A DNA stretch of 64,000 nt from an uncultured Gemmatimonadales bacterium (lineage in GTDB: Bacteria > Gemmatimonadota > Gemmatimonadetes > Gemmatimonadales > GWC2-71-9). The translations under genes and the position numbers were made by a program. Location of the stretch: positions 1,824,001 through 1,888,000 of the forward strand of contig CAVZZO010000001.1 of the NCBI GenBank assembly GCA_963779755.1, in the 5' to 3' direction. The notes under the pieces were generated by a model that ran no database searches, had not been told where the DNA came from, and worked only from the letters and a program-made list of their open reading frames with translations. Below, in pieces: positions 9,997 to 21,339 of this stretch (within the stretch, counting starts at the first letter, position 1; every line of letters starts with the position of its first letter).

Positions 9997-10025
9997 CACC
10001 TGGTGACCGGCCACTCGCGACGACC

Positions 10026-10241
10026 ATGACCCACCTCCGCCTCGCCATCACCGGTATGACCGGCGTCCCCTGCCGGCAGAAGATCGAGCGCGCGGTGCTG
10101 GGGTTGTCCGGCGTCGAGGCAGCCGTGGTCTGCCTGGGCCAGGGCTACGCGGACATCGAGTACGAGGAAACGGAGCTGGCCCCGGAAACGCTGCTGGAGA
10201 CCATTGCCCAGGCCGGCTACCAGGCACGGATCGGGGGCTAA
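10026..10241 (+). CDS. Heavy-metal-associated (HMA/CopZ-like) domain protein with a degenerate metal motif
   Basis: LAITGMTGVPC..KIERAV..LSGV...TIAQAGY. Confidence 0.75.
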   Translation: MTHLRLAITGMTGVPCRQKIERAVLGLSGVEAAVVCLGQGYADIEYEETELAPETLLETIAQAGYQARIGG

Positions 10242-10243
10242 CC

Positions 10244-10312
10244 GACGCCAGGGGTGAGGCGTCGGGCGTGCCATGCCTCACCCCTCGCGTTTCACCCCTG
10301 GCGTCTCACGTC
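10244..10312. repeat. Short-repeat hairpin (GGGGTGA/GGCGT versus TCACCCC/CGTCTCA)
   Basis: gacgccaggggtga ... tcacccctggcgtc forms a perfect inverted pair, with extra degenerate units. Confidence 0.65.
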
Positions 10313-10382
10313 TTGACTCTCCTCTCCAGCCGATAAATCTTTCCCCGCCATTTTGTTACCCGATCACGCCGCCAGGAACCAC

Positions 10383-11438
10383 ATGCCCACGCCCGCGCCC
10401 GCTTCTGCGCCTCCGGCTCCTCCGGCGGGCCTCACGCGGGACCAGCTCCTCGAGCTCTATTACTACATGCGCCTGACCCGCTCGCTGGAAGAGCGGCTGG
10501 TGAATCTCTACCGGCAGACCCGCGTCATCGGCGGCCTGTTCCGTTCGCTGGGCCAGGAGGCGGACAGCGTGGGCAGCGCGTACGCGCTCGACCGCTCCCG
10601 GGGCGATTTTCTCTCTCCCCTCATTCGCAACCTGGGCAGCATGCTGGTCCAGGGGGCGACGCCGGTCGAGATCCTGCGCCAGTACATGGCCAAGGCCGAC
10701 AGCCCCACGCACGGGCGCGAGCTCAACATTCACTTCGGCGACCTCGAGCGCGGCTTCATCGGCCAGATCAGCCACCTGGGCGACATGGTCCCGGTCATGG
10801 CCGGCGTCACCCTCTATTTCAAGATGAAGCGGCAGCCGCGGGTGGGGCTGGTGTACGTGGGCGACGGCGCGCTCAGTACCGGCGCGTTCCACGAGGGGAT
10901 CAACTTCGCGGCGGTGCAGCGGCTGCCGCTGGTGATCATCGCCGAGAACAACGGCTATGCGTACACCACCCCGTCGCGGAAACAGACCGCCGCCCGCCGC
11001 CTCATGGACAAGGCGGAGGCGTACGGTATCCCGGGGCTGCAGGCGGACGGCAACGATGTGCTGGCGGTCTACGAAACCACCCGCGGCGCGGTCGATCGCG
11101 CCCGGCGCGGCGAGGGCGTTTCCTTCATCGAGCTCATCACCTTCCGGCGCAAGGGGCATGCGGAGCACGACAACCAGTCCTATGTGCCCAAAGAAGAGCT
11201 CGAGGCGTGGGAAAAGAACGATCCGCTCGATCGCTACATCGCGCGGCTCGTCGGCACCGGCTGGGCCGGCGCCGCCGAGCTGGAGGCGCTGGACCGGCGG
11301 GTGGAGGACGAACTGACCCGCGCGGTGGAAGCCTGCGAGAAGGAGCCGATGCCGGAGGGGACGACGGCGCTGGGAGGGGTGTACGCGGAGCCGGTGTCAG
11401 CAGAGCTGGAATGGTATCGAAGGCAGTCCGGGCGGTAG
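10383..11438 (+). CDS. 2-oxoacid (pyruvate/branched-chain) dehydrogenase E1 alpha subunit
   Basis: ThDP motif GDGA...ENNGYA, plus DGNDV and RRKGHAEHD. Confidence 0.92.
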   Translation: MPTPAPASAPPAPPAGLTRDQLLELYYYMRLTRSLEERLVNLYRQTRVIGGLFRSLGQEADSVGSAYALDRSRGDFLSPLIRNLGSMLVQGATPVEILRQYMAKADSPTHGRELNIHFGDLERGFIGQISHLGDMVPVMAGVTLYFKMKRQPRVGLVYVGDGALSTGAFHEGINFAAVQRLPLVIIAENNGYAYTTPSRKQTAARRLMDKAEAYGIPGLQADGNDVLAVYETTRGAVDRARRGEGVSFIELITFRRKGHAEHDNQSYVPKEELEAWEKNDPLDRYIARLVGTGWAGAAELEALDRRVEDELTRAVEACEKEPMPEGTTALGGVYAEPVSAELEWYRRQSGR

Positions 11439-11496
11439 AGGCGGGAGGGCGGTCCGCTGGTCCGACCGCCTGACCGCCTGACCGCCCGAGCCGCCC
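11431..11496. repeat. Octamer repeat hairpin (GGCGGTnn / GACCGCCT)
   Basis: ggcggtagaggcgggagggcggt ... gaccgcctgaccgcctgaccgccc. Confidence 0.7.
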
Positions 11497-11515
11497 AACC
11501 TGGAGCGCCTTTCGC

Positions 11516-12496
11516 ATGCCCGAAATCACCTATCTCGAAGCCATCCGCCAGGGTCTCTGGGAAGAGATGGAGCGGGATGAGCGGGTGTTCATCCTGGGCG
11601 AGGACGTGGGCGCCTACGGCGGGGCGTTCAAGGTCACCGACGGGTTTCTGCAGAAGTTCGGCGACTCGCGGGTGATCGACACCCCGATCAGTGAGGCGGC
11701 CATCGTCGGGGCGGCGGCGGGGGCGGCGCACATGGGCATGCGCCCGGTGGCGGAGATGCAGTTCATCGACTTCATCTCCTGCGCCTATGACATGCTCACC
11801 AACTATGTCGCCACCGCCCGCTACCGTGCCGGGCTGCCGACCCCCATGGTGGTCCGGGGGCCTTCGGGCGGCTACGTGCGGGGCGGCCCGTTCCACAGCC
11901 AGAACCCGGAGGCTGCCTTCCTTCATACCCCGGGGCTCAAGATCGTGGCGCCGGCCACCGCGCGCGACGCCAAGGGGCTCATCAAGGCCGCGGTGCGCGA
12001 TGACGATCCGGTGCTATACTTCGAGCACAAATACCTCTACCGGCGGATCAAGGAAGATCTCCCGGAAGGGGAGGAAATCCTGACACCGCTGGGCCAGGCG
12101 CGCCTCGCGCGCGAGGGGAGCGACCTCTCGATCATCACCTGGTCGGCCATGGTGTGGAAGGCGCTGGAAGCGGCCGAGCGGCTGGAACAGGAAGATGGGC
12201 TGCGGGTGGAGGTGCTGGATCTCCGCACCCTGATGCCGATGGACGACGCCGCCATCATGGCAACGGTGCGCAAGACCAACCGGGTGCTCATCGCGCACGA
12301 GGACACCCGCACCGGGGGCATGGCGGGCGAGATTACCGCCCGGATCAACGACCAGGCGTTCGAATGGCTCGATGCACCGGTCAAGCGCGTGGCGGCGCAC
12401 GATGTGCCGCTGCCCTACGCGCCGACCCTGGAAGATTTCGTGCTTCCGCAGACCGACGACCTGGTCGCGGCGGCGAGATGGCTGGCGAGATACTGA
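11516..12496 (+). CDS. 2-oxoacid dehydrogenase E1 beta subunit
   Basis: Motifs GEDVG, DTPISE, EMQFIDF, HSQ and FEHK. Confidence 0.93.
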   Translation: MPEITYLEAIRQGLWEEMERDERVFILGEDVGAYGGAFKVTDGFLQKFGDSRVIDTPISEAAIVGAAAGAAHMGMRPVAEMQFIDFISCAYDMLTNYVATARYRAGLPTPMVVRGPSGGYVRGGPFHSQNPEAAFLHTPGLKIVAPATARDAKGLIKAAVRDDDPVLYFEHKYLYRRIKEDLPEGEEILTPLGQARLAREGSDLSIITWSAMVWKALEAAERLEQEDGLRVEVLDLRTLMPMDDAAIMATVRKTNRVLIAHEDTRTGGMAGEITARINDQAFEWLDAPVKRVAAHDVPLPYAPTLEDFVLPQTDDLVAAARWLARY

Positions 12497-12501
12497 ACTG
12501 C

Positions 12502-12550
12502 GTGAGCAGGCGGCGGTAAGCGGGTCTCCCGCTCCCCGCTCCCCGCTCAC
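12502..12550. repeat. Heptamer repeat hairpin (CCCCGCT type)
   Basis: gtgagc...taagcggg / cccgctccccgctccccgctcac. Confidence 0.6.
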
Positions 12551-12568
12551 CGACGCGGAGCTTCAGGC

Positions 12569-13933
12569 ATGGCAACAACCGACATCATCATGCCCCAGAT
12601 GGGCGAGTCCATCGCCGAGGGGACTCTGTCCAAGTGGCTCAAGCAGGTGGGCGACGAGGTCAAGCGCGACGAGCCCATCTTCGAGATCTCGACCGACAAG
12701 GTCGACGCGGAGATCCCCTCGCCCGGGGCGGGGGTGTTATCGGAAATCCTGGTGCAGGAAGGCGAAACCGTCGCGGTCCAGACCGTGGTCGGGCGCATCT
12801 CCACCGACAAGGGCGCGGCGGCCCCCGCGCCCGCCAAACCGGACGCGCCGCCCAGGGCCGACGCCCCACCCAGGGCTGCGGCTCCCGCGCCCGCGCCGGA
12901 GAAGCCGACCGCTGCGCCGCCGCCCCCGCGTTCCGCCCCCGCCCCCGCGCCGGCGTCGGCGCCGGCCGCCGGTTCCCATGACAACGAGACGGCCGATGAG
13001 CGGCTGCGCCGCCGGTCCACCCCCCTGGTGCGCCGGATGGCGGCCGAGCACAACCTGGACATCGCCGAGATTCCCGGCACCGGGCACGCGGGCCGGGTGA
13101 CCAGGAACGACTTCCTGCAGTTCCTCGACAACCGGCCCGCCGCGGCGGCACCCGCCCCGGCGGCGGCCCGGCCCGCGGCCCCTGCCCCTGCCGCTCCGGT
13201 GGAGCACGCGCCGGTGGTGGAGCCCTGGCCGGGCGACCGGGTGGAGCCCTGGTCGAAGATCCGCAAGCTCACCGCGGATCACATGATCATGTCGCAGCGG
13301 GTGTCGGCGCACGTCTCGAGCTACTTCGAGGTGGACTTTACCATCGTGGCCCGGCTGCGCGCGGCGAAGAAGGCCGAATATGCGGGGCGGGGAGTGAACC
13401 TCACCTACATGGCGTTCATCACCAAGGCCGTGGCCGACAACCTGCGCAAACATCCGGTCGTCAACGCCGCCGTCTCGGGCGAGTCCACCATCTACCGCGG
13501 TGAGATCAACATCGGCATCGCGGTGGCGCTGGACTGGGGGCTCATCGTCCCGGTCATCAAACGGGCCGACGAGCTGTCGCTCATGGGGGTGGCGCGCGCC
13601 ATCAACGACCTGGCGGAGCGGGCCCGCAGCAAGAAGCTGAGCCCGGACGAAGTCCAGCGGGGGACCTTTACCATTACCAACCCCGGGGTGTTCGGCAGCG
13701 TGATCGGCTTCCCCATGATCAACCAGCCGCAGGTGGCTATCATGGGAGTTGGCACCATCGAGAAGCGGGCGACCGTGGTCACCCTCCCCGACGGCACCGA
13801 TGCCGTGGCGCCGCGCCTGCGCGGCATGATCTCCATGTCCTACGATCACCGTATCGTGGACGGGGCCGACGCCGACCGCTTCATGGCCGACGTCAAGAAG
13901 ACGCTCCAGGAGTTCCCGGAGCACGGCGTCTGA
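12569..13933 (+). CDS. Dihydrolipoamide acyltransferase (E2)
   Basis: Lipoyl domain (STDKV), Pro/Ala linkers, E3-binding domain (GTGHAGRVT) and catalytic DHRIVDGA. Confidence 0.94.
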   Translation: MATTDIIMPQMGESIAEGTLSKWLKQVGDEVKRDEPIFEISTDKVDAEIPSPGAGVLSEILVQEGETVAVQTVVGRISTDKGAAAPAPAKPDAPPRADAPPRAAAPAPAPEKPTAAPPPPRSAPAPAPASAPAAGSHDNETADERLRRRSTPLVRRMAAEHNLDIAEIPGTGHAGRVTRNDFLQFLDNRPAAAAPAPAAARPAAPAPAAPVEHAPVVEPWPGDRVEPWSKIRKLTADHMIMSQRVSAHVSSYFEVDFTIVARLRAAKKAEYAGRGVNLTYMAFITKAVADNLRKHPVVNAAVSGESTIYRGEINIGIAVALDWGLIVPVIKRADELSLMGVARAINDLAERARSKKLSPDEVQRGTFTITNPGVFGSVIGFPMINQPQVAIMGVGTIEKRATVVTLPDGTDAVAPRLRGMISMSYDHRIVDGADADRFMADVKKTLQEFPEHGV

Positions 13934-13934
13934 C

Positions 13935-14255
13935 ATGGCCCGCACGCTGAGCGTTTCCCGGGTGCGGGTCGTGCCGGAACGCGAGGGCGAATATCTGGCC
14001 ACGCTGGCGGCCCTGGCCGCGCTCCTCGGCCCCCGGGGCCAGCGTCTCTGGGTCTTCCGCAGCACCGCCGATCCCCGGCTCTTCCTGGAGTTCAGCGAGA
14101 GTCCCACTCCCATGTCTCACCGGCATCTGGCCTCCCGGACTCAGGAAGAGCTGCGGTTGGAGCAGCGGCTGCACCGGGTGGCCGATTACCAGGGCGACGA
14201 GGAACCGCTCTGGGAGGAAGTGCCGCTCAGTGCCAGCAATACACCGGAGAACTGA
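13935..14255 (+). CDS. Hypothetical protein (possible dimeric alpha/beta barrel)
   Basis: Tightly coupled ORF, 1 nt after the E2 stop. Confidence 0.7.
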   Translation: MARTLSVSRVRVVPEREGEYLATLAALAALLGPRGQRLWVFRSTADPRLFLEFSESPTPMSHRHLASRTQEELRLEQRLHRVADYQGDEEPLWEEVPLSASNTPEN

Positions 14256-14257
14256 AC

Positions 14258-14524
14258 GTGCCCAATCGCGTCATAGTGGTCGATGGCGAGTCCTGGACGG
14301 TCGAGCCCTCGGGCCGGACCACCCAGTATGTCCGCGATGAATTCAGCCTGCTCTTCACCCGCGGCCACGGCCCCGACCGGGAGCGCCGCGTCACCCGCTA
14401 TTCGCCCCCGGCCGCGCGCGACCCCGAGGGCTCGCTCGACGAGCTGACCGACCAGGAGCTGGGGCAGCTGCTGACCACCTCCGAACCCGCGTGGATTTCG
14501 CCGGAGACGGGATACCAGCGCTGA
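14258..14524 (+). CDS. Hypothetical protein
   Basis: GTG start after GGAG; coupled within the operon. Confidence 0.7.
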   Translation: MPNRVIVVDGESWTVEPSGRTTQYVRDEFSLLFTRGHGPDRERRVTRYSPPAARDPEGSLDELTDQELGQLLTTSEPAWISPETGYQR

Positions 14525-15375
14525 GCGGCGGGACGGTCGACCTCCACGTCCACTCCACCGCTTCGGACGGCAGCCTGGCGCCCGCCGCGGTGGTGGCCCG
14601 GGCCCGCGCGGCCGGGCTCGACGCGATCGCGCTGACCGACCACGATTCCCTGGCCGGCATCCCTGCCGCGCTGGAGGCCGGCGCCGCCGCCGGCCTGCGC
14701 GTCATCGCCGGCTGCGAGTTCTCGGTCGCCGCCTCCTGGGGCGAGATGCACGTGCTGGGCTATTTCCTCCCGTCCGGTGATCCCTCCCTGGAGTCCTTTC
14801 TCCAGCGCTGCCGTGACGACCGCCGCCGGCGAGCCGAAGAGATGGTCGTCCGGCTGCGGCGCTCCGGCGCGGCCCTCACCCTGGACGACGTGCTGCGCGA
14901 ATCGGCCGGCGGCGCCATCGGACGGCCGCACGTGGCGCGCGCCCTGGTGCGCCGGGGCATAGTGGCCGGCATCGACACCGCGTTCGAGCGCTTTCTGCGG
15001 CATGGCCGCCCCGCGTTCGTGGCCAAGCGGCTGCCGGCGTTCGCCGAGGTGGCCGGGCTGGTGCATGCGGTGGGCGGCCTGGTCGCGGTGGCGCATCTCA
15101 AGGAGCGCGGAACCCGGAAGCGCCTGGCCGGGTTCAAGGCACAGGGGCTGGATGCCGTGGAAACCCGCCACCCCAGTCATGATCCGGAAACCCGGGCCCG
15201 TCTCACCGATCTCGCGCTGGAGCTGGACCTCCTGCGGACCGGCGGCAGCGACTGGCACGGCGATCCGGCACCGCCGGCCACCAGCCATGCCTCGCTGGGC
15301 TCGCAGCAGGTGCCGCTGGCCTGGCTCGACCTTCTGGACGCCCGGCGTGCCGGGCCTCACCCGGTGGAACGATGA
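14491..15375 (+). CDS. PHP-domain phosphoesterase (YciV/TrpH-like); start may be CTG at 14521
   Basis: Motifs DLHVHSTASDG, LTDHD, HVLGY, GRPHVA and GGSDWHG. Confidence 0.9.
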   Translation: MDFAGDGIPALSGGTVDLHVHSTASDGSLAPAAVVARARAAGLDAIALTDHDSLAGIPAALEAGAAAGLRVIAGCEFSVAASWGEMHVLGYFLPSGDPSLESFLQRCRDDRRRRAEEMVVRLRRSGAALTLDDVLRESAGGAIGRPHVARALVRRGIVAGIDTAFERFLRHGRPAFVAKRLPAFAEVAGLVHAVGGLVAVAHLKERGTRKRLAGFKAQGLDAVETRHPSHDPETRARLTDLALELDLLRTGGSDWHGDPAPPATSHASLGSQQVPLAWLDLLDARRAGPHPVER

Positions 15376-15821
15376 GCACACCCCTTGCCACCGGCACCGC
15401 GGCTCCGGCGTTCGACGCCGAAGGGTCCGACGGGCGTCGGTACAATCTGAAGAAGCTGCTGGCGCGCGGCCCGGTGCTGCTGGTGTTCTACCCCATGAAC
15501 AACACCTCCGGCTGAAACCGCCAACTCTCCGCCGTGCGCGATGAGATCGAGCAGTACCGCAGTCACGGAGTACAGCCCTTCGGCGTCAATCCGGCATCGG
15601 TGGACGCGCATGCCTCCTATGCCGAACACCTGGAGCTGAATTTCCCCCTGCTGTCCGACCCCGGGCGCAAGATCGCCTCCGCCTACCAGGCCGCCCGCCC
15701 CATGGGCATGGGCGTCATCCGGACGGTGTACCTGATCGGGCAGGACGGAACCATTCGGTTCGCCCAGCGCGGCGCGCCGGGGGCCGAGGTGAGCCTGCCG
15801 GCGCTGGAAAGCGGGGACTGA
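15372..15821 (+). CDS. Peroxiredoxin (BCP/AhpC-TSA family), probable selenoprotein with in-frame TGA at 15513-15515
   Basis: MSTPLATGTAAPAF...VLLVFYPMNNTSG*NRQL...FPLLSDP...IRTVYLI. The TGA occupies the peroxidatic position of PxxxTxxC. The start overlaps the PHP stop (ATGA). Confidence 0.85.
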
Positions 15822-16543
15822 TGCCGACGACCTTCGACTTTTCGGGCAAGACGGTGCTGGTCACCGGCGTGGCGCGCCGGGGGCAGATCGGACACGCCGT
15901 GGCGCAGGCATTCGGCCAGAGCGGCGCCCGGCTGGTGGCGGCCGACCTGGATGCCGTGGCCGTGGCCGAGCGGGCGCGCGAGTTTGCCGCCGCCGGGCTG
16001 GAGGTGCGGCCCGTCGCCGGCGACCTGACCGAGCCCGATATTGCCGCGCTGGCGGTCGAGACGGCGGTGAAGCACTTCGGCGGGCTGGATGTGCTGGTGA
16101 ATGTGGCCGGCGGCCTGACCACCTTCGGGCCCCTGGGCCAGAGCACGCCCGACGGCTTCGAGCGCGAACTGGCCATCAACCTGCGGACGTCGTATCTCAT
16201 GTCCCGCGCCGCGCTCGATGCCCTCACCGCCCGCCACGGTGCCATGGTCAACTTCGCCTCGGCGGCGGTATATCATCCCGACCCCAACCTGGCCGTTTAT
16301 ACCGCGGCCAAGGCGGCGGTGGCCGGCTTCACCCGCAGCCTGGCGGTCGAGTTGCACCCCCGGGTCCGGGTCAACGCGGTGGCGCCGGGAATGGTGCGGA
16401 CCGCCGAGAATATCGCGTCGGTGGGCGAGAACGCGGCGTACGTCGAGATGGCCGATATCGTCCGCGCGGTGCTGTTTCTGGCCAGCGACGCCGCGGCCGG
16501 CATTACCGGGCATGTGCTGCCGGTGACGGCCCATCCGCTCTGA
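15821..16543 (+). CDS. Short-chain dehydrogenase/reductase (SDR)
   Basis: Motifs VLVTG..GQIG, NVAGG, YTAAK and VRVNAVAPG. Confidence 0.9.
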   Translation: MPTTFDFSGKTVLVTGVARRGQIGHAVAQAFGQSGARLVAADLDAVAVAERAREFAAAGLEVRPVAGDLTEPDIAALAVETAVKHFGGLDVLVNVAGGLTTFGPLGQSTPDGFERELAINLRTSYLMSRAALDALTARHGAMVNFASAAVYHPDPNLAVYTAAKAAVAGFTRSLAVELHPRVRVNAVAPGMVRTAENIASVGENAAYVEMADIVRAVLFLASDAAAGITGHVLPVTAHPL

Positions 16544-16574
16544 GCCGGGGCGCTCGCCCCGCTAGTTTTCCCCT

Positions 16575-17360
16575 ATGAATTCCGGTACCGACGCCCCGGC
16601 GGTGGAGAGCCCCGCCGGGGAGTATGTCCAGTTGGGCGAGGTCGTGGTGATCGGCGGCGGCTGCTACGGGACCTTCTATGCCCGCCAGCTCGAGGCCGCC
16701 CGCGAGCGGGGGAGCGCGGCCTTCCGGCGCCTGCTGGTGGTGGACCGCGATCCGGCGTGCCGCATGCGCCGTGAGCTGGGGGAGAATGATCGCCGCCGTC
16801 TGGTGATTCGCGACTGGGATGCGTTCCTGGGCGAGTGGCTGGCGGACGCGGCGCGCGAAGCCCCCGGTGCCCCGGACGTGATCGTTCCCTCGCCGCTCAT
16901 GCCCCACCTCATGTACCGCTGGCTGCTGCGACGCGCCCGGGAACGCTGGCCCGGCCGGGAAGTGGAGACCCGGCCGGTGCCGGCCGGGCCGGGCACGCCG
17001 TACGATCAGGCCGCCCCCGACCACACCCGCTACGTCTCCTTCGCCGACTGGATCTGTCCCACCCACTGCATCGAGCCGGCTCGCTGTCCCGTCATCCGCG
17101 GCCCCCGGACCTGGGAGATGAGCGAAGCCGCAGCCGCCCTGGTCCGCCGGCTTGCGCGGACCGGCCCCGTGGCGGGGCCGGTCCTCTTCCACTGCCGCCA
17201 CACCGTCTTCGGCGTGGGCACCTTTCCGGCCGCCCTGGTCCGCCAGGGCGACCGGACCGTCGCGGCAGCGGGAGCGGCGGGGACGGCCGTGGATGTGCTG
17301 GTGGGAACGGTTTCCTCCTGCCACGGTGCACTCAACCTGCTGCACCTGGGCGAGGCCTGA
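16575..17360 (+). CDS. Uncharacterised Rossmann-like protein with a Cys cluster
   Basis: Contains VVVIGGGCYG, CPTHCIEPARC and a C-terminal SSCHG. Confidence 0.75.
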   Translation: MNSGTDAPAVESPAGEYVQLGEVVVIGGGCYGTFYARQLEAARERGSAAFRRLLVVDRDPACRMRRELGENDRRRLVIRDWDAFLGEWLADAAREAPGAPDVIVPSPLMPHLMYRWLLRRARERWPGREVETRPVPAGPGTPYDQAAPDHTRYVSFADWICPTHCIEPARCPVIRGPRTWEMSEAAAALVRRLARTGPVAGPVLFHCRHTVFGVGTFPAALVRQGDRTVAAAGAAGTAVDVLVGTVSSCHGALNLLHLGEA

Positions 17361-17392
17361 AGCCGGGAACCGGCAGGGGTTCTATATTTGAA

Positions 17393-17412
17393 GCAACTGG
17401 CAACTGGCAACT
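17393..17412. repeat. Short heptamer tandem (GCAACTG, about 3 copies)
   Basis: gcaactggcaactggcaact in the trxB leader. Confidence 0.55.
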
Positions 17413-17449
17413 ATCGACCACCGATCTCCCTCTCTTTCTCGACTGTTTC

Positions 17450-18430
17450 ATGTCCCACGATCAGAACGCCCCCAGTTTCCATGATCTCGTCATCGTCGGC
17501 GGCGGCCCCGCCGGCCTCTGCGCCGCCATGTATGCCGGCCGCGGCATGCTGCGCGCGGTGCTGCTGGAGCGGGGCAAGCCGGGCGGCGAGCTGCTCAATA
17601 CCGAACTCATCGAGGACTATCCCGGTTTCGAGAGCATCCTGGGCCGCGACCTGGCCGAGCGGATGACGGAGCACGCCATCAAGTTCGGCGCCGATATCCG
17701 GCAGGAAAACGTGGATGCCATCCGGCGCCATCCCGAGGGCGGTTTCGAGATTACCACCTCGCTGGGCGCGGCATATCGCTCGCCCGCGGTCATTCTTACC
17801 GCCGGCGGCACGCCCAACAAGCTGGGGGTGCCGGGGGAGCTGGAATTCGCCGGCCGCGGCGTGTCCTATTGCGCCGTGTGTGACGGCGCGTTTTTCAAGG
17901 GCGAGACCATCGCGGTCGTGGGCGGCGGCGACGCCGCGGTGGAAGAGGCGGAGTACCTCACGCGCTACGCGGAAAAGGTCTACGTCATCCACCGCCGCGA
18001 CGCCTTCCGGGCCAGCAAGATCCTGCAGGACCGGCTGTTCGAAAACCCGCGCATCGAGGTGATCTGGAACCGCACGGTGAAGGAAATCCAGGGCGGCCCG
18101 GCCGGGGTAACCACGCTGGCGCTGGAGGACACGGTCACCGGCGAGGTGTCGGAGCTGGCGGTTGGCGGCGTGTTCATCTTTATCGGATTCACCCCCAATA
18201 CCGGCATCGTGAAGGAGCACGTAAACCACGATGCGGCCGGCTACCTGATCACCGACGAGCGCATGATGACCTCCGTTCCCGGCCTCTTCGCCGCCGGCGA
18301 CCTCCGGGTACAGCTCACCCGGCAGATCACCACCGCCGTCGGGGATGCCACCACCGCGGCCATTGCGGTGGAAAAATACCTGGCCGAACAGCGCAAGCGG
18401 CCCGACCGGGAGGCGGCCGTCGGTGTCTGA
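17450..18430 (+). CDS. trxB: Thioredoxin-disulfide reductase
   Basis: Motifs GGGPAG, GVSYCAVCDG, GGGDAAVEEA, HRRD and GLFAAGD. Confidence 0.95.
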   Translation: MSHDQNAPSFHDLVIVGGGPAGLCAAMYAGRGMLRAVLLERGKPGGELLNTELIEDYPGFESILGRDLAERMTEHAIKFGADIRQENVDAIRRHPEGGFEITTSLGAAYRSPAVILTAGGTPNKLGVPGELEFAGRGVSYCAVCDGAFFKGETIAVVGGGDAAVEEAEYLTRYAEKVYVIHRRDAFRASKILQDRLFENPRIEVIWNRTVKEIQGGPAGVTTLALEDTVTGEVSELAVGGVFIFIGFTPNTGIVKEHVNHDAAGYLITDERMMTSVPGLFAAGDLRVQLTRQITTAVGDATTAAIAVEKYLAEQRKRPDREAAVGV

Positions 18431-19070
18431 GCCTTTCGTGCTGCCGATCGTGAACGGCCAGCTGGTGGAGAACTGCTACCTGCTGGGCGATCCGGATTCC
18501 CGGGCGGCGGTCCTGGTGGACCCGGGCGAGGAGACCGCGCGCTTCGAGGCCGAGCTCGCGCAGGGAGGGTGGCGGCTCGAGGCCATCTGGCTCACCCATG
18601 CGCATGTGGACCACATCATGGGCGTGGGGCGCATCCGGGCGGCGCACCAGGTGCCCATCCTGCTGCACCCCGCCGACCGGCCGCTCTATGACGCGCTGCC
18701 GCAGCAGGGGGAATGGGTCGGGTTCCGCCTGGAAGCGCCGCCGCCGCCCGACGAAGAACTGCGCCACGGGCAGGTCCTCCGGGTGGGGCCCTGGCAGTGG
18801 GAAGTGCGCCATACGCCGGGCCATTCGCCCGGCAGCGTCAGCTTCCGCGGCCACGGCATGATCCTCGGCGGCGACGTGCTCTTCAGCGGGTCCATCGGCC
18901 GGACCGACCTGCCCGGCGGCGATACCGCCACGCTCTTCGAGTCGATCCACCGCGAGTTCCTCACGCTGGACGACGCCACCGTGGTGCACAGCGGGCACGG
19001 GCCCGCCACCACCATTGGAGCCGAGCGAACCTGCAATCCGTTCCTGACCGGGGCAATCCATGCCGGCTGA
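18423..19070 (+). CDS. MBL-fold metallo-hydrolase (glyoxalase II-like)
   Basis: Motifs THAHVDH, PGHSPG, GDVLF..SIGRTD and GHG. Confidence 0.9.
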   Translation: MSEPFVLPIVNGQLVENCYLLGDPDSRAAVLVDPGEETARFEAELAQGGWRLEAIWLTHAHVDHIMGVGRIRAAHQVPILLHPADRPLYDALPQQGEWVGFRLEAPPPPDEELRHGQVLRVGPWQWEVRHTPGHSPGSVSFRGHGMILGGDVLFSGSIGRTDLPGGDTATLFESIHREFLTLDDATVVHSGHGPATTIGAERTCNPFLTGAIHAG

Positions 19071-19218
19071 GCCGGGTTCGGCGCCTCGGCCGGTCGCCGG
19101 CGATCCGGGGCCGCGCTGCAACCGCTGCGGGTTTGAAGTCCGCGGCAAGCCCCGGGGGTGCAAGAATCCCTGTCCCAACTGCGGGACCGTCTACCCCCTG
19201 GGCGACTGCTCCGACTGA
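19060..19218 (+). CDS. 52-aa Cys-rich zinc-finger-like microprotein (not in ORF track)
   Basis: MPAEPGSAPRPVAGDPGPRCNRCGFEVRGKPRGCKNPCPNCGTVYPLGDCSD fills the gap between the MBL and GT4 genes. Confidence 0.75.
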   Translation: MPAEPGSAPRPVAGDPGPRCNRCGFEVRGKPRGCKNPCPNCGTVYPLGDCSD

Positions 19219-19225
19219 CCCACTC

Positions 19226-20413
19226 GTGCCCGCCGCCGTCGCCGAGGCGCCCCTCCACCTCTCCCGTTCTCCCCTGCCGCCTGCTCCCGCCGCCGGCGCG
19301 AGCTTCACCGTTCTGGACATCACCAAGTCGTACGGCGACACCAGCGGCGGGGTGAAGACCTATCTTCGCGAGAAGGGCCGCTATGTCGCGGCCCGTCCCG
19401 GCCTGCGGCAGGTGGTGGTGGTCCCCGGCGCGCAGGACGCCGTCGCGGACGAGCCGGGCAGCCGCTGGTACCGGTTGCGGGGACGGCCGGTCCCCTTTCA
19501 GCCGCCGTACCGGTTTCTACTCTCGACCGCCAAGGTCGCGCGGATCGCGCGGCACGAGCATCCCAGCGTGGTCGAAGTGGGCAGCCCCTTCTTCGTGCCC
19601 TGGGTGGTCCGCCGCGCGTTACGCGACCTGGCTATCCCCCGGGTCTGGTTCTACCATGGCCATCTGCCGGGAATCTTTCCCGCCCCGGCCTGGCTCACTC
19701 GGCGGTACGTCCGCCGGTTGAGCCGTCTCTATGATCGGGTCCTTGTCGCCAGCGACTTTGCGGCCGACGCACTGCGCGACTATGGCGTGGACAATGTCGC
19801 TCGCGTGCCCCTCGGCGTGGATCTCGACCTCTTTCATCCCCGGCGCCGCGTATGCCGGGAGCGGGTCCGGGAACGCCTCGGACTCGGAGCGGGGCCGCTG
19901 GTGCTCTATGCCGGGCGGATTGCCGGGGAGAAGGGGCTGGGCCTGGTGCTGGAAGCCTGGAAAGAGGTTGAGCGGCGCAGCCCGGCCACGCTGGTGCTGG
20001 TGGGCGACGGGCCCTCGGCGCAACGCTATCGCGCGCGCGCCGGGGCCGCCCGGATTCGCTGGCTGCCCTACGAGCGCGATCGCGCGCGCTTCGCCGATCT
20101 GCTGGCGGCCGCCGATCTGTACCTTGCCCCCGGGCCCAACGAGACCTTCGGCCTGTCGGTGCTCGAAGCCATGGCGTCCGGGGTGCCGGTGGTATCGGTT
20201 GCCGCCGGCGGCGGCGCCGAACTGGTGCGGCGCGCCGGGGCCGGGGAGCTCTACCAGGCCAGCCCGGCCGATGCGGCGGCCGCCGTGCTCCGCGCGTTGG
20301 ACCGGGGGGCAGGCGCTGCACCGGGCGGAGTGCGCGCCTGGGTGGAGCGGGAACACAGCTGGACCCACGCCTTCGACCGGCTGTTCCAGATCTATTACGG
20401 CCTCTCCTCGTGA
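19226..20413 (+). CDS. Glycosyltransferase family 4 (GT-B, mannosyltransferase-like)
   Basis: Motifs SGGVKTY, GVDLDLF, YAGRIAGEKG and ETFGLSVLEAMASG. Start is approximate. Confidence 0.88.
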   Translation: MPAAVAEAPLHLSRSPLPPAPAAGASFTVLDITKSYGDTSGGVKTYLREKGRYVAARPGLRQVVVVPGAQDAVADEPGSRWYRLRGRPVPFQPPYRFLLSTAKVARIARHEHPSVVEVGSPFFVPWVVRRALRDLAIPRVWFYHGHLPGIFPAPAWLTRRYVRRLSRLYDRVLVASDFAADALRDYGVDNVARVPLGVDLDLFHPRRRVCRERVRERLGLGAGPLVLYAGRIAGEKGLGLVLEAWKEVERRSPATLVLVGDGPSAQRYRARAGAARIRWLPYERDRARFADLLAAADLYLAPGPNETFGLSVLEAMASGVPVVSVAAGGGAELVRRAGAGELYQASPADAAAAVLRALDRGAGAAPGGVRAWVEREHSWTHAFDRLFQIYYGLSS

Positions 20414-21339
20414 CCTTTGCCGAAGCCAACCTGGTCTGTCTGGCGCTGGTGGCGGCCGACCTCGCCGCCCGCGCGGTGCGGATTCAGTGGTTTCTGCGCG
20501 GACTGGGCTATCGGCTCCGGTTCCTCGACGCGCTGGCGATTAATGCCGTGGGCGACGCCGCCTGCGGGCTGACCCCCTTGCGGATCGGGGGGGAGCCCAG
20601 CCGGCTGGCGATGATGCTGCGCTCGCGCATTCCCGCCACGGCCGCCTTCGTGGCCATCGGCTATGAAGTCCTGGCGGCCTGGCCGGTGATCATTCTCAGT
20701 GCCGCGGTGCTGATTCTCGGGTGGGCCCCCGAATGGTGGGCCAGCGTGAAGCCCAACCTGGTGCATGCCGGCCGCGAGCTGGGGCCCTGGATGCTGGTCA
20801 TCGCGGTCCTGACCGTGCTGGCCTGGTTCTGGGTGCGGCGCCGGGCCCCGGCGGCAACCCACCAGCTGCGCCGCCCGCTCCGTCGCACCCTGGTGCACTG
20901 GCGGCGCATGGCCAAGTGGCCCCTCTTCGCCAGCGGGCCGCTCACCCTGGTGAATGTGGTGGCTCGTGTCGCCATGCTTCCGGTGCTGGCGCTCACGCTG
21001 CCGCATCCCCCGCCGCTCGGCCCCACCGTGGTGGGCTCGTTCGCGCTGCTCTACAGCCAGCTCATCCTGCCCACGCCCTCGGGCGCCGGGGCCGTCGATC
21101 TCGGCTTTCTGGCCGGCGCCGCCGGTGACCTGGGCGGCGACCAGGCGCGCCTGCTGCTGCTCTGGCGGCTCTACACCAGCGGTATCGGCGTGGCACTCGG
21201 GCTGATTATCGGGATACGGATCTACGGCTGGGCGGCGCTGCGGGGGCTGCTGGGACGGCCGGGCGGCGTGAATGTGGTGCGCCCCGGAGAACGCGACCCG
21301 ACTGAACAGCGGGAATGGGGAGCGGGGAAAAGGGAATAG
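20410..21339 (+). CDS. Lysylphosphatidylglycerol synthase TM-region / flippase-like membrane protein
   Basis: Multi-TM protein with TPLRIGGEP, PTPSGAG and WRLYT. Confidence 0.8.
   Translation: MTFAEANLVCLALVAADLAARAVRIQWFLRGLGYRLRFLDALAINAVGDAACGLTPLRIGGEPSRLAMMLRSRIPATAAFVAIGYEVLAAWPVIILSAAVLILGWAPEWWASVKPNLVHAGRELGPWMLVIAVLTVLAWFWVRRRAPAATHQLRRPLRRTLVHWRRMAKWPLFASGPLTLVNVVARVAMLPVLALTLPHPPPLGPTVVGSFALLYSQLILPTPSGAGAVDLGFLAGAAGDLGGDQARLLLLWRLYTSGIGVALGLIIGIRIYGWAALRGLLGRPGGVNVVRPGERDPTEQREWGAGKRE

What the first reader, a model, noticed from the sequence alone, without database searches (positions are those of the whole stretch)
15372..15821. Hidden recoded peroxiredoxin: the only redox residue is an in-frame TGA (probable selenoprotein)
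Seen in sequence: a 150-codon frame coupled to both neighbours (ATGA with PHP, TGATG with SDR) has a single TGA at codon 48 (15513-15515). It falls exactly at the peroxidatic position of PxxxTxxC (P-M-N-N-T-S-G-*). The catalytic-Arg region (IRTVYLI) is intact and the protein has no Cys at all. A weak hairpin with a G-containing loop sits about 10-30 nt downstream (about 15525-15546), where bacterial SECIS elements lie. Established: Sec-containing peroxiredoxins exist and need SelA, SelB, SelC and SelD. Inference: this is a 1-Sec peroxiredoxin, possibly recycled via TrxB encoded 1.6 kb downstream. The ORF track shows only the C-terminal fragment.
Basis: partly seen in the sequence, partly recalled or inferred. 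Interest (0 to 1): 0.75.

Follow-up and report, generated by a model that had tools for sequence, protein, structure and literature searches.

The report
Selenocysteine peroxiredoxin hidden by TGA codon
An antioxidant-enzyme gene that gene finders cut in two at a TGA "stop" is very likely one intact gene whose catalytic residue is selenocysteine, a known kind of selenoprotein, and its relatives appear to have switched back to ordinary cysteine about ten times.

Summary
Confirmed. The frame 15372-15821 has one internal TGA (15513-15515) at the peroxidatic position of PxxxTxxC, an intact catalytic Arg117 and no Cys. The genome encodes SelA, SelB, SelD and tRNA-Sec and otherwise uses TGA as its main stop. 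Of 78 orthologous loci, 69 have TGA and 9 TGC at this codon. A 17-nt stretch of the downstream hairpin is identical in 66 of 69 TGA genes, synonymous sites included, and decays in Cys genes: a SECIS signature, although the hairpin is thermodynamically weak. Verdict: a BCP/PrxQ-like 1-Sec peroxiredoxin of a Gemmatimonadales-type lineage, a new member of a known family. This scan found the same family three times before in other genomes. The TrxB link is weak: the gene block persists in 3 of 5 genomes lacking the peroxiredoxin. One extra point: Cys forms nest inside the Sec clade about ten times, whereas a 2026 review calls bacterial Sec-to-Cys change rare.

The parts
15372..15821 (+). Gene for a 149-aa BCP/PrxQ-like peroxiredoxin, read through the internal UGA (predicted Sec48); no Cys
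   Evidence: translation; Pfam AhpC-TSA 106.5 bits, residues 8-130; model pLDDT 95.9, C in place of U; Foldseek top hits BcpB 5epf, Bcp1 3drn, TM 0.87-0.88
15513..15515 (+). In-frame TGA at the peroxidatic position (PxxxTxxU; P41 at 15492-15494, T45 at 15504-15506)
   Evidence: TGA in 69 and TGC in 9 of 78 distinct orthologous loci; C in 73 of 75 full-length database homologues
15525..15545 (+). Predicted bacterial SECIS inside the coding sequence: CUC/GAG lower arms, CGC/GCG upper stem, apical C-GU-G motif at 15533-15536 (its GUG is the false start that gene callers use)
   Evidence: five degenerate codons invariant in 28 sequences, 0 of 30 control columns invariant; 17-mer identical in 66 of 69 Sec genes; loop kept in 68 of 69 Sec and 0 of 9 genome Cys genes; decay in metagenome Cys genes
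15720..15722 (+). Catalytic Arg117 codon
   Evidence: 28 of 28; 75 of 75; aligns with the conserved Arg region of Bcp chains
14491..15375 (+). Upstream PHP-domain gene; its stop overlaps the peroxiredoxin start (neighbour, not shown to be a functional partner)
   Evidence: PHP hit in 64 of 78 loci
15821..16543 (+). Downstream SDR oxidoreductase gene; its start overlaps the peroxiredoxin stop
   Evidence: SDR hit in 63 of 78 loci
16546..16561 (+). Terminator-like hairpin after the SDR gene (consensus match only; 6 found vs 3.5 +/- 1.8 in shuffles)
17450..18430 (+). Thioredoxin reductase gene trxB (part of the conserved gene block; not specifically linked to the peroxiredoxin)
   Evidence: (TIGR01292 367.7 bits, cut-off 343.45)

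Best explanation
The gene very likely encodes an intact single-selenocysteine peroxiredoxin of the BCP/PrxQ type, with the UGA at codon 48 predicted to be read as Sec by the genome's own SelB and tRNA-Sec, guided by a small hairpin in the coding sequence just downstream. Shown: the codon sits in PxxxTxx-UGA, the catalytic Arg is kept, SelA/B/C/D are present, and the hairpin sequence is under nucleotide-level constraint only in UGA-bearing genes. Inferred from the family mechanism: the Sec48 selenolate, held by Pro41, Thr45 and Arg117, reduces a hydroperoxide and becomes selenenic acid. With no resolving Cys, an outside thiol must form a mixed selenenyl-sulfide and reduce it. The likeliest donors are one of the genome's two thioredoxins (regenerated by TrxB and NADPH) or bacillithiol (bshC present; no gshB and no glutaredoxin over cut-off). 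The donor is untested; I put about 50% on thioredoxin, 35% on bacillithiol and 15% on something else.
For: Machinery: SelA E=2e-129; SelB wing domain and a full-length SelB-like frame; tRNA-Sec 69.7 bits vs cut-off 47, anticodon UCA; SelD 378 bits, itself with a TGA. TGA is the main stop in this genome (723 of 1106 long GC3-rich ORFs). Column: 69 TGA and 9 TGC of 78 loci. In 401 phylum genomes, 100 match at E<=1e-26, 91 with an internal TGA and 9 without. 87 of the 91 have SelA, and the other four all have SelB and SelD. SECIS: pS = 0.0 over codons +4 to +8 vs 0.55-0.56 elsewhere. The chance of that 5-codon string per sequence from the family's own codon use is 0.7%, against 66 of 69 observed. 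The spacing (17 nt), 5-nt loop and G in loop position 2 fit the published consensus (PMC13188914 passages). The second Sec-peroxiredoxin of this genome has the same C-GU-G at the start of its loop on a 7-bp stem. A divergent orthologue (L082) encodes a similar peptide with a different perfect 6-bp hairpin and A-GU-U loop. Fold. No conserved second Cys: 59 of 69 Sec loci have none downstream and the rest are scattered; 60 of 75 full-length database homologues (73 with Cys at this column) have no other Cys. Donors: two thioredoxins, bshC, no glutaredoxin or gshB over cut-off.
Against: There is no direct evidence of Sec insertion or expression. The hairpin is weak: the core (-5.4 kcal/mol) misses the -7.5 criterion, only the 45-nt context reaches it (-7.9), and the 60-nt window is no more stable than shuffles. 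The element is so invariant that there is almost no covariation to prove the pairing. SelA co-occurrence discriminates little, because 321 of 401 genomes have SelA, and 5 of 9 Cys forms also lie in SelA-positive genomes. No NCBIfam peroxiredoxin model reaches its cut-off (best: bcp 67 vs 140). AhpE structures match almost as well as BCP (TM 0.87-0.90), so the subfamily is not settled.
Confidence: 0.95

Rival explanations
1. The UGA is recoded, but as cysteine or another standard residue (a UCA-anticodon tRNA-Cys, or a variant genetic code), not as selenocysteine.
For: Cys is the alternative residue at this column. UGA-to-Cys tRNAs exist in some bacteria (recalled, not checked here).
Against: The only UCA tRNA scores as tRNA-Sec over the Rfam cut-off and ends in G; its two copies come from an 8.2-kb overlap of contigs C3 and C4. 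SelA, SelB and SelD are present. TGA ends 723 of 1106 long ORFs, so there is no genome-wide reassignment.
Confidence: 0.02
2. The gene is a pseudogene or a sequencing error, or the 95-aa downstream fragment starting at GTG 15534 is the real product.
For: Databases list the 89-100 aa fragments as proteins (44 of 119 listed homologues). No run covering this exact DNA at depth was available to check reads.
Against: The same TGA occurs in 69 distinct loci across genera and families. Both halves are equally conserved. The fragment lacks the active site, and its GTG is the SECIS loop with no purine-rich ribosome-binding site upstream.
Confidence: 0.02
3. It is a selenoprotein, but mainly a redox sensor or relay, or a dedicated partner of the co-encoded pyruvate/2-oxoacid dehydrogenase lipoyl arm or of TrxB, rather than a general peroxide scavenger.
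For: The gene sits in a conserved block behind E1/E2 dehydrogenase genes and in front of SDR and trxB; in 11 loci trxB is the next identified gene. Lipoyl-dependent peroxidase recycling is known elsewhere (recalled).
Against: The block persists without the peroxiredoxin: PHP is directly followed by SDR, then trxB, in 3 of 5 genomes tested, so adjacency reflects general synteny. All catalytic residues of an ordinary peroxiredoxin are kept.
Confidence: 0.1

Closest known systems
Bacterial Sec-containing peroxiredoxin family 'Prx' (PF00578, COG1225, motif TxxU/PxxxTxxU; listed in PMC13188914 Table and PMC1088965 Table 1)
   Same: PF00578 fold, PxxxTxxU motif, in-frame UGA with a downstream SECIS, Sec machinery in the genome.
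   Different: Gemmatimonadota are not named in the main text of the two surveys checked (supplements not opened). This clade has a near-frozen 21-nt SECIS and no conserved second Cys, and appears to revert to Cys repeatedly, whereas PMC1794560 Table 1 lists 0 Sec-to-Cys and 5 Cys-to-Sec events for Prx.
PrxU of Eubacterium acidaminophilum (NCBIfam NF040737; seen only as a reference-list entry in PMC8533274 and as the HMM)
   Same: Sec at the peroxidatic position of a peroxiredoxin.
   Different: Scores 30.5 bits against a cut-off of 270, and is 149 aa against a 233-position model: not that subfamily.
BCP/PrxQ peroxiredoxins (Bcp1 3drn, BcpB 5epf) and the 1-Cys AhpE class
   Same: Best sequence hits (3drn E=3e-14) and best fold hits (TM 0.87-0.88); about a third of PrxQ lack a resolving Cys (PMC4749874 passages).
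   Different: Sec in place of Cys; below the curated bcp cut-off (67 vs 140 bits); only 25-28% identity to solved structures; AhpE folds score almost equally.

Membership tests
Peroxiredoxin superfamily | Pxxx(T/S)xx(C/U) active-site motif | tested here: met
   P41-M-N-N-T45-S-G-U48; P, T and G invariant in 28 of 28
Peroxiredoxin superfamily | Conserved catalytic Arg from a distant part of the chain | tested here: met
   R117 in 28 of 28 and 75 of 75
Peroxiredoxin superfamily | Peroxiredoxin (thioredoxin-like) fold / PF00578 above gathering score | tested here: met
   106.5 bits vs 26; model pLDDT 95.9, Foldseek TM 0.88 to Bcp structures
Peroxiredoxin superfamily | Peroxide-reducing activity | not testable with these tools
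   needs an enzyme assay
Bacterial selenoprotein (Sec-Prx, TxxU) | In-frame UGA aligned to catalytic Cys of homologues | tested here: met
   69 TGA and 9 TGC of 78 loci; 73 of 75 C
Bacterial selenoprotein (Sec-Prx, TxxU) | SelA, SelB, SelC and SelD in the genome | tested here: met
Bacterial selenoprotein (Sec-Prx, TxxU) | bSECIS geometry: 3-9 nt loop, G in the first two loop positions, loop 16-37 nt from UGA | tested here: met
   5-nt loop CGUGC, 17 nt from UGA; criteria from PMC13188914
Bacterial selenoprotein (Sec-Prx, TxxU) | bSECIS stability <= -7.5 kcal/mol and upper stem of 4 bp or more | tested here: inconclusive
   core -5.4, 39 nt -7.2, 45 nt -7.9; 3-bp upper stem unless bulged pairs are counted; z = +0.92
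Bacterial selenoprotein (Sec-Prx, TxxU) | Sec actually incorporated (75Se or MS) | not testable with these tools
   no proteomic data; no RNA holder listed
BCP/PrxQ subfamily | Subfamily active-site profile (PREX/DASP) or curated bcp HMM cut-off | tested here: inconclusive
   best hits are BCP by sequence and fold, but PRK09437 gives 67 of 140 bits and AhpE is close; PREX not available
PrxU (NF040737) | Score above curated cut-off 270 | tested here: not met
   30.5 bits
2-Cys (atypical) PrxQ | Resolving Cys in helix alpha2 or alpha3 | tested here: not met
   no Cys in the protein; no conserved second Cys among orthologues

The most novel reading that the evidence does not exclude
This clade gained Sec once and has gone back to Cys about ten separate times, often in genomes that still make Sec, leaving a decaying fossil SECIS in the Cys genes. 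That runs against the published view that bacterial Sec-to-Cys change is rare and largely limited to FdhA and SelD. It gives matched natural Sec/Cys pairs of a thiol-free peroxidase (for example L112 vs P0016, L100 vs P0015) and a natural mutational scan of a minimal SECIS.
Probability: 0.75. Interest if true: 0.45.

Novelty: new member of a known kind. Interest (0 to 1): 0.3.

Why it matters
For annotation: a gene present in about half of the sampled genomes of this family (79 of 165) is recorded in databases as a catalytically dead 95-aa fragment. For selenium biology: SelA is found in 321 of 401 sampled genomes of the phylum, a group the surveys checked do not name. The clade also offers matched Sec and Cys versions of one small enzyme for asking what selenium buys and why it is given up. 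The enzyme class and recoding mechanism are established, and this scan has reported the family before.

Tried and rejected
Sequencing runs: no RNA holder listed; the one DNA run with a small share (0.13) gave only short pieces from other organisms plus about 290 nt of the SDR region, so it says nothing on the TGA or on expression. Thermodynamic shuffle test of the hairpin: not significant. De novo scans for other read-through TGA genes: 38 and 28 candidates, nearly all same-frame gene junctions or noise; they recovered this gene (both scans) and the second peroxiredoxin (first scan only) but missed SelD, so they are not a census. SelA co-occurrence as a test: weak because of the 80% baseline. 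trxB adjacency as evidence of partnership: rejected. The first, 149-row careful tree did not finish and returned the quick tree; conclusions use the 60-row careful tree. No sigma-70-like promoter match was found in 10000-20500 (uninformative). No complex prediction was run, since no binding claim is made. Paper searches pairing Gemmatimonad with selenocysteine/peroxiredoxin, selenoprotein/SelA or selenoproteome and Sec-to-Cys with peroxiredoxin listed no paper describing this clade. These rest on listings and abstracts, supplements were not opened, and most subscription papers are not in the library.

Full report
1. Observation. The frame 15372-15821 translates to 149 residues with one internal TGA at codon 48 (15513-15515), in FYPMNNTSG*NRQLSAVRDE, and contains no Cys. 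It overlaps the PHP stop at its start and the SDR start at its end. The plain ORF list gives only a 95-aa fragment from GTG 15534, which is also how the protein database holds it (P0003). Read through, it matches Pfam AhpC-TSA over residues 8-130 at 106.5 bits. An AlphaFold2 model (C for U, 53-sequence alignment) has pLDDT 95.9. Its best structural matches are BCP-type peroxiredoxins (5epf, 3drn; TM 0.87-0.88), with AhpE close behind.

2. Machinery. The 97%-complete genome has SelA, SelB, tRNA-Sec with anticodon UCA and SelD, itself with an in-frame TGA. The two tRNA-Sec copies lie in an 8.2-kb overlap of contigs C3 and C4. TGA is the usual stop (723 of 1106 long ORFs), so there is no genome-wide reassignment. 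Named relatives are nearly all labelled Gemmatimonadales or Gemmatimonadota (one record is titled Bacillota).

3. Relatives. Of 401 phylum genomes, 100 (including this one) have a match at E<=1e-26; 91 have an internal TGA and 9 do not. I fetched 79 loci (seven distant hits left out) and dropped one duplicate. Of the 78 left, 69 have TGA and 9 TGC at exactly this codon. In the protein database, 73 of 75 full-length homologues among the 119 listed have Cys here; the other 44 are N-terminally cut fragments. SelA is found in 87 of the 91 TGA genomes, and the four without it are fragmented assemblies that have SelB and SelD. This test is weak, since 321 of 401 genomes have SelA and 5 of 9 Cys forms are in SelA-positive genomes. 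One of the 91 rows (G184) is an unpublished genome; removing it changes nothing. Mean pairwise identity is 54.3% before the TGA and 53.7% beyond the hairpin (28 sequences; crude, saturated pS), so the downstream half is not relaxed.

4. SECIS. Codons +4 to +8 (Leu, Ser, Ala, Val, Arg, all 4- or 6-fold degenerate) use a single codon each wherever the residue is kept (27-28 of 28 sequences). None of 30 equally conserved control columns does (heterozygosity 0.34-0.66). In the wider set the 17-nt core is identical in 66 of 69 TGA genes, against about 0.5 expected from the family's codon use; kin are not independent. The predicted hairpin (15525-15545) has loop CGUGC 17 nt after the UGA, which fits the consensus spacing, loop size and G position (PMC13188914, passages and section 10 read). 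Against it: the core is only -5.4 kcal/mol, the 45-nt context -7.9, and the 60-nt window is no better than shuffles; there is too little variation to show covariation. Two independent hints support it. The genome's second Sec-peroxiredoxin has C-GU-G at the start of the loop of a 7-bp stem. A divergent orthologue (L082) uses different codons that form a perfect 6-bp hairpin with loop A-GU-U. Controls: none of the 9 genome Cys loci keeps the loop. Among 19 distinct metagenome Cys genes chosen by a pattern that favours forms near the Sec clade (24 matches, 5 duplicates dropped), 13 keep the loop and 3 the whole 17-mer. None keeps both lower arms (my reading), against 67 of 69 Sec genes, and 5 of the 8 that still encode LSAVR carry synonymous changes. 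The element is therefore held in Sec genes and decaying in Cys genes.

5. Mechanism. Shown: motif, Arg117, machinery and constrained hairpin. Inferred: SelB-GTP-Sec-tRNA binds the GU loop and decodes UGA48, and the selenolate reduces hydroperoxides. There is no resolving Cys: 59 of 69 Sec loci have no Cys downstream of the Sec and the rest are scattered. In 1-Cys peroxiredoxins a small thiol or another protein resolves the oxidised residue (PMC4749874 passages). This genome has two thioredoxins and bshC, with no glutaredoxin or gshB over cut-off, so thioredoxin or bacillithiol is the likely donor. The neighbourhood (E1/E2 dehydrogenase genes, two small unknown genes, PHP, this gene, SDR, a 261-aa unknown gene, trxB, MBL hydrolase) is conserved: PHP 64, SDR 63 and trxB 27 of 78 flank-limited loci. 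But in 3 of 5 genomes lacking the peroxiredoxin, PHP is followed directly by SDR and then trxB, so adjacency does not show partnership.

6. Direction of change. I built a 60-row tree (34 Sec, 23 ingroup Cys, 3 outgroup Cys rows) with the codon and the ten SECIS-coded residues masked. Rows were picked by me after the 149-row quick tree to represent each Cys group. The tree needs 10 changes, 7 of them forced by well-supported branches. Rooted on the outgroup, a Sec ancestor needs 10 losses and a Cys ancestor 22 gains; Sec genes as one clade are rejected (AU p = 2e-65). The shared SECIS sequence and its relics in Cys genes point the same way. Caveats: one long-branched outgroup, 134 columns and no species-tree reconciliation. 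DNA confirms TGY for five of the ten Cys lineages; the others rest on protein records. PMC1794560 (passages and Table 1) counted no Sec-to-Cys events for Prx, and PMC13188914 section 10 calls such changes rare outside FdhA and SelD.

7. Comparison with what is known. Sec-Prx with TxxU is listed as an established family (PMC13188914), with 43 genes under COG1225 in the Sargasso Sea set (PMC1088965 passages and tables) and 91 in 78 organisms (PMC5029168 passages and table). The protein is not PrxU (30.5 vs 270 bits) and is below the bcp cut-off. PMC8533274 (passages) supports the general selenenic-acid cycle and resistance to overoxidation. Supplements of these papers were not opened and could list Gemmatimonadota members. 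Earlier notes of this scan describe the same family in three other genomes; I tested the claims independently here.

8. Verdict. A real selenoprotein gene (about 95%), a new member of a known kind, already met by this scan; interest 0.3. The repeated return to Cys with a fossil SECIS is the one point that goes somewhat beyond what the papers read here report.

Noticed in passing
L051:1414-1980 (G000:C1, TGA at 1690263; outside the window): A second Sec-peroxiredoxin gene in this genome, with an N-terminal signal-like stretch, motif QARTKG-UGA (no active-site Pro) and a canonical 7-bp SECIS stem whose loop starts C-GU-G; it scores higher on the PrxU model (78.6 bits) than on bcp. Already noted by this scan.
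   Followed up: partly
L083 (G386:C1, around 918700-920200): In this one relative the Sec-peroxiredoxin frame runs without a stop into the SDR gene, giving a predicted Prx-SDR fusion of about 400 aa; it may be a real fusion or an assembly error.
   Followed up: no
L082 (G065:C19:13311-13733): An orthologue in a different class of the phylum, outside the usual gene block, nested among family f1 sequences on a long branch in the quick tree, with a different but perfect SECIS-like hairpin; possible transfer with a rebuilt SECIS.
   Followed up: partly
L011 (G000:C1:921618-922538, minus strand): SelD is itself a predicted selenoprotein (HGAG-UGA-ACK) with a strong 8-bp hairpin (loop GCC) whose lower arms are also CUC/GAG starting 10 nt after the UGA, as in the peroxiredoxin SECIS.
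   Followed up: partly
window 14258-14524 (+) and 13935-14255 (+): Two small genes with no Pfam or NCBIfam match (88 and 106 aa); the 88-aa gene is found in 72 of 78 loci and in 5 of 5 further genomes, fixed between the E2 dehydrogenase gene and PHP.
   Followed up: no
window 16575-17360 (+): A 261-aa gene with a Rossmann-like GGGCYG start and several Cys/His motifs but no Pfam or NCBIfam match, conserved in front of trxB in many relatives.
   Followed up: no
G000:C3:1-8222 and G000:C4:1-8209: The two contigs overlap in reverse at 99.4% over 8.2 kb, which explains the duplicate tRNA-Sec.
   Followed up: yes
phylum sample: SelA is found in 321 of 401 genomes but in only 1 of 15 of genus g55 and 0 of 4 of family f8: clean lineage-level losses of the Sec trait.
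   Followed up: no
L119-L142 and P0004-P0006: Some Cys forms gain a second Cys five or six residues after the peroxidatic one (CNRQLC, CNRQLSC), a position where 2-Cys PrxQ carry the resolving Cys, suggesting a possible return to a 2-Cys cycle once the SECIS constraint is lifted.
   Followed up: no
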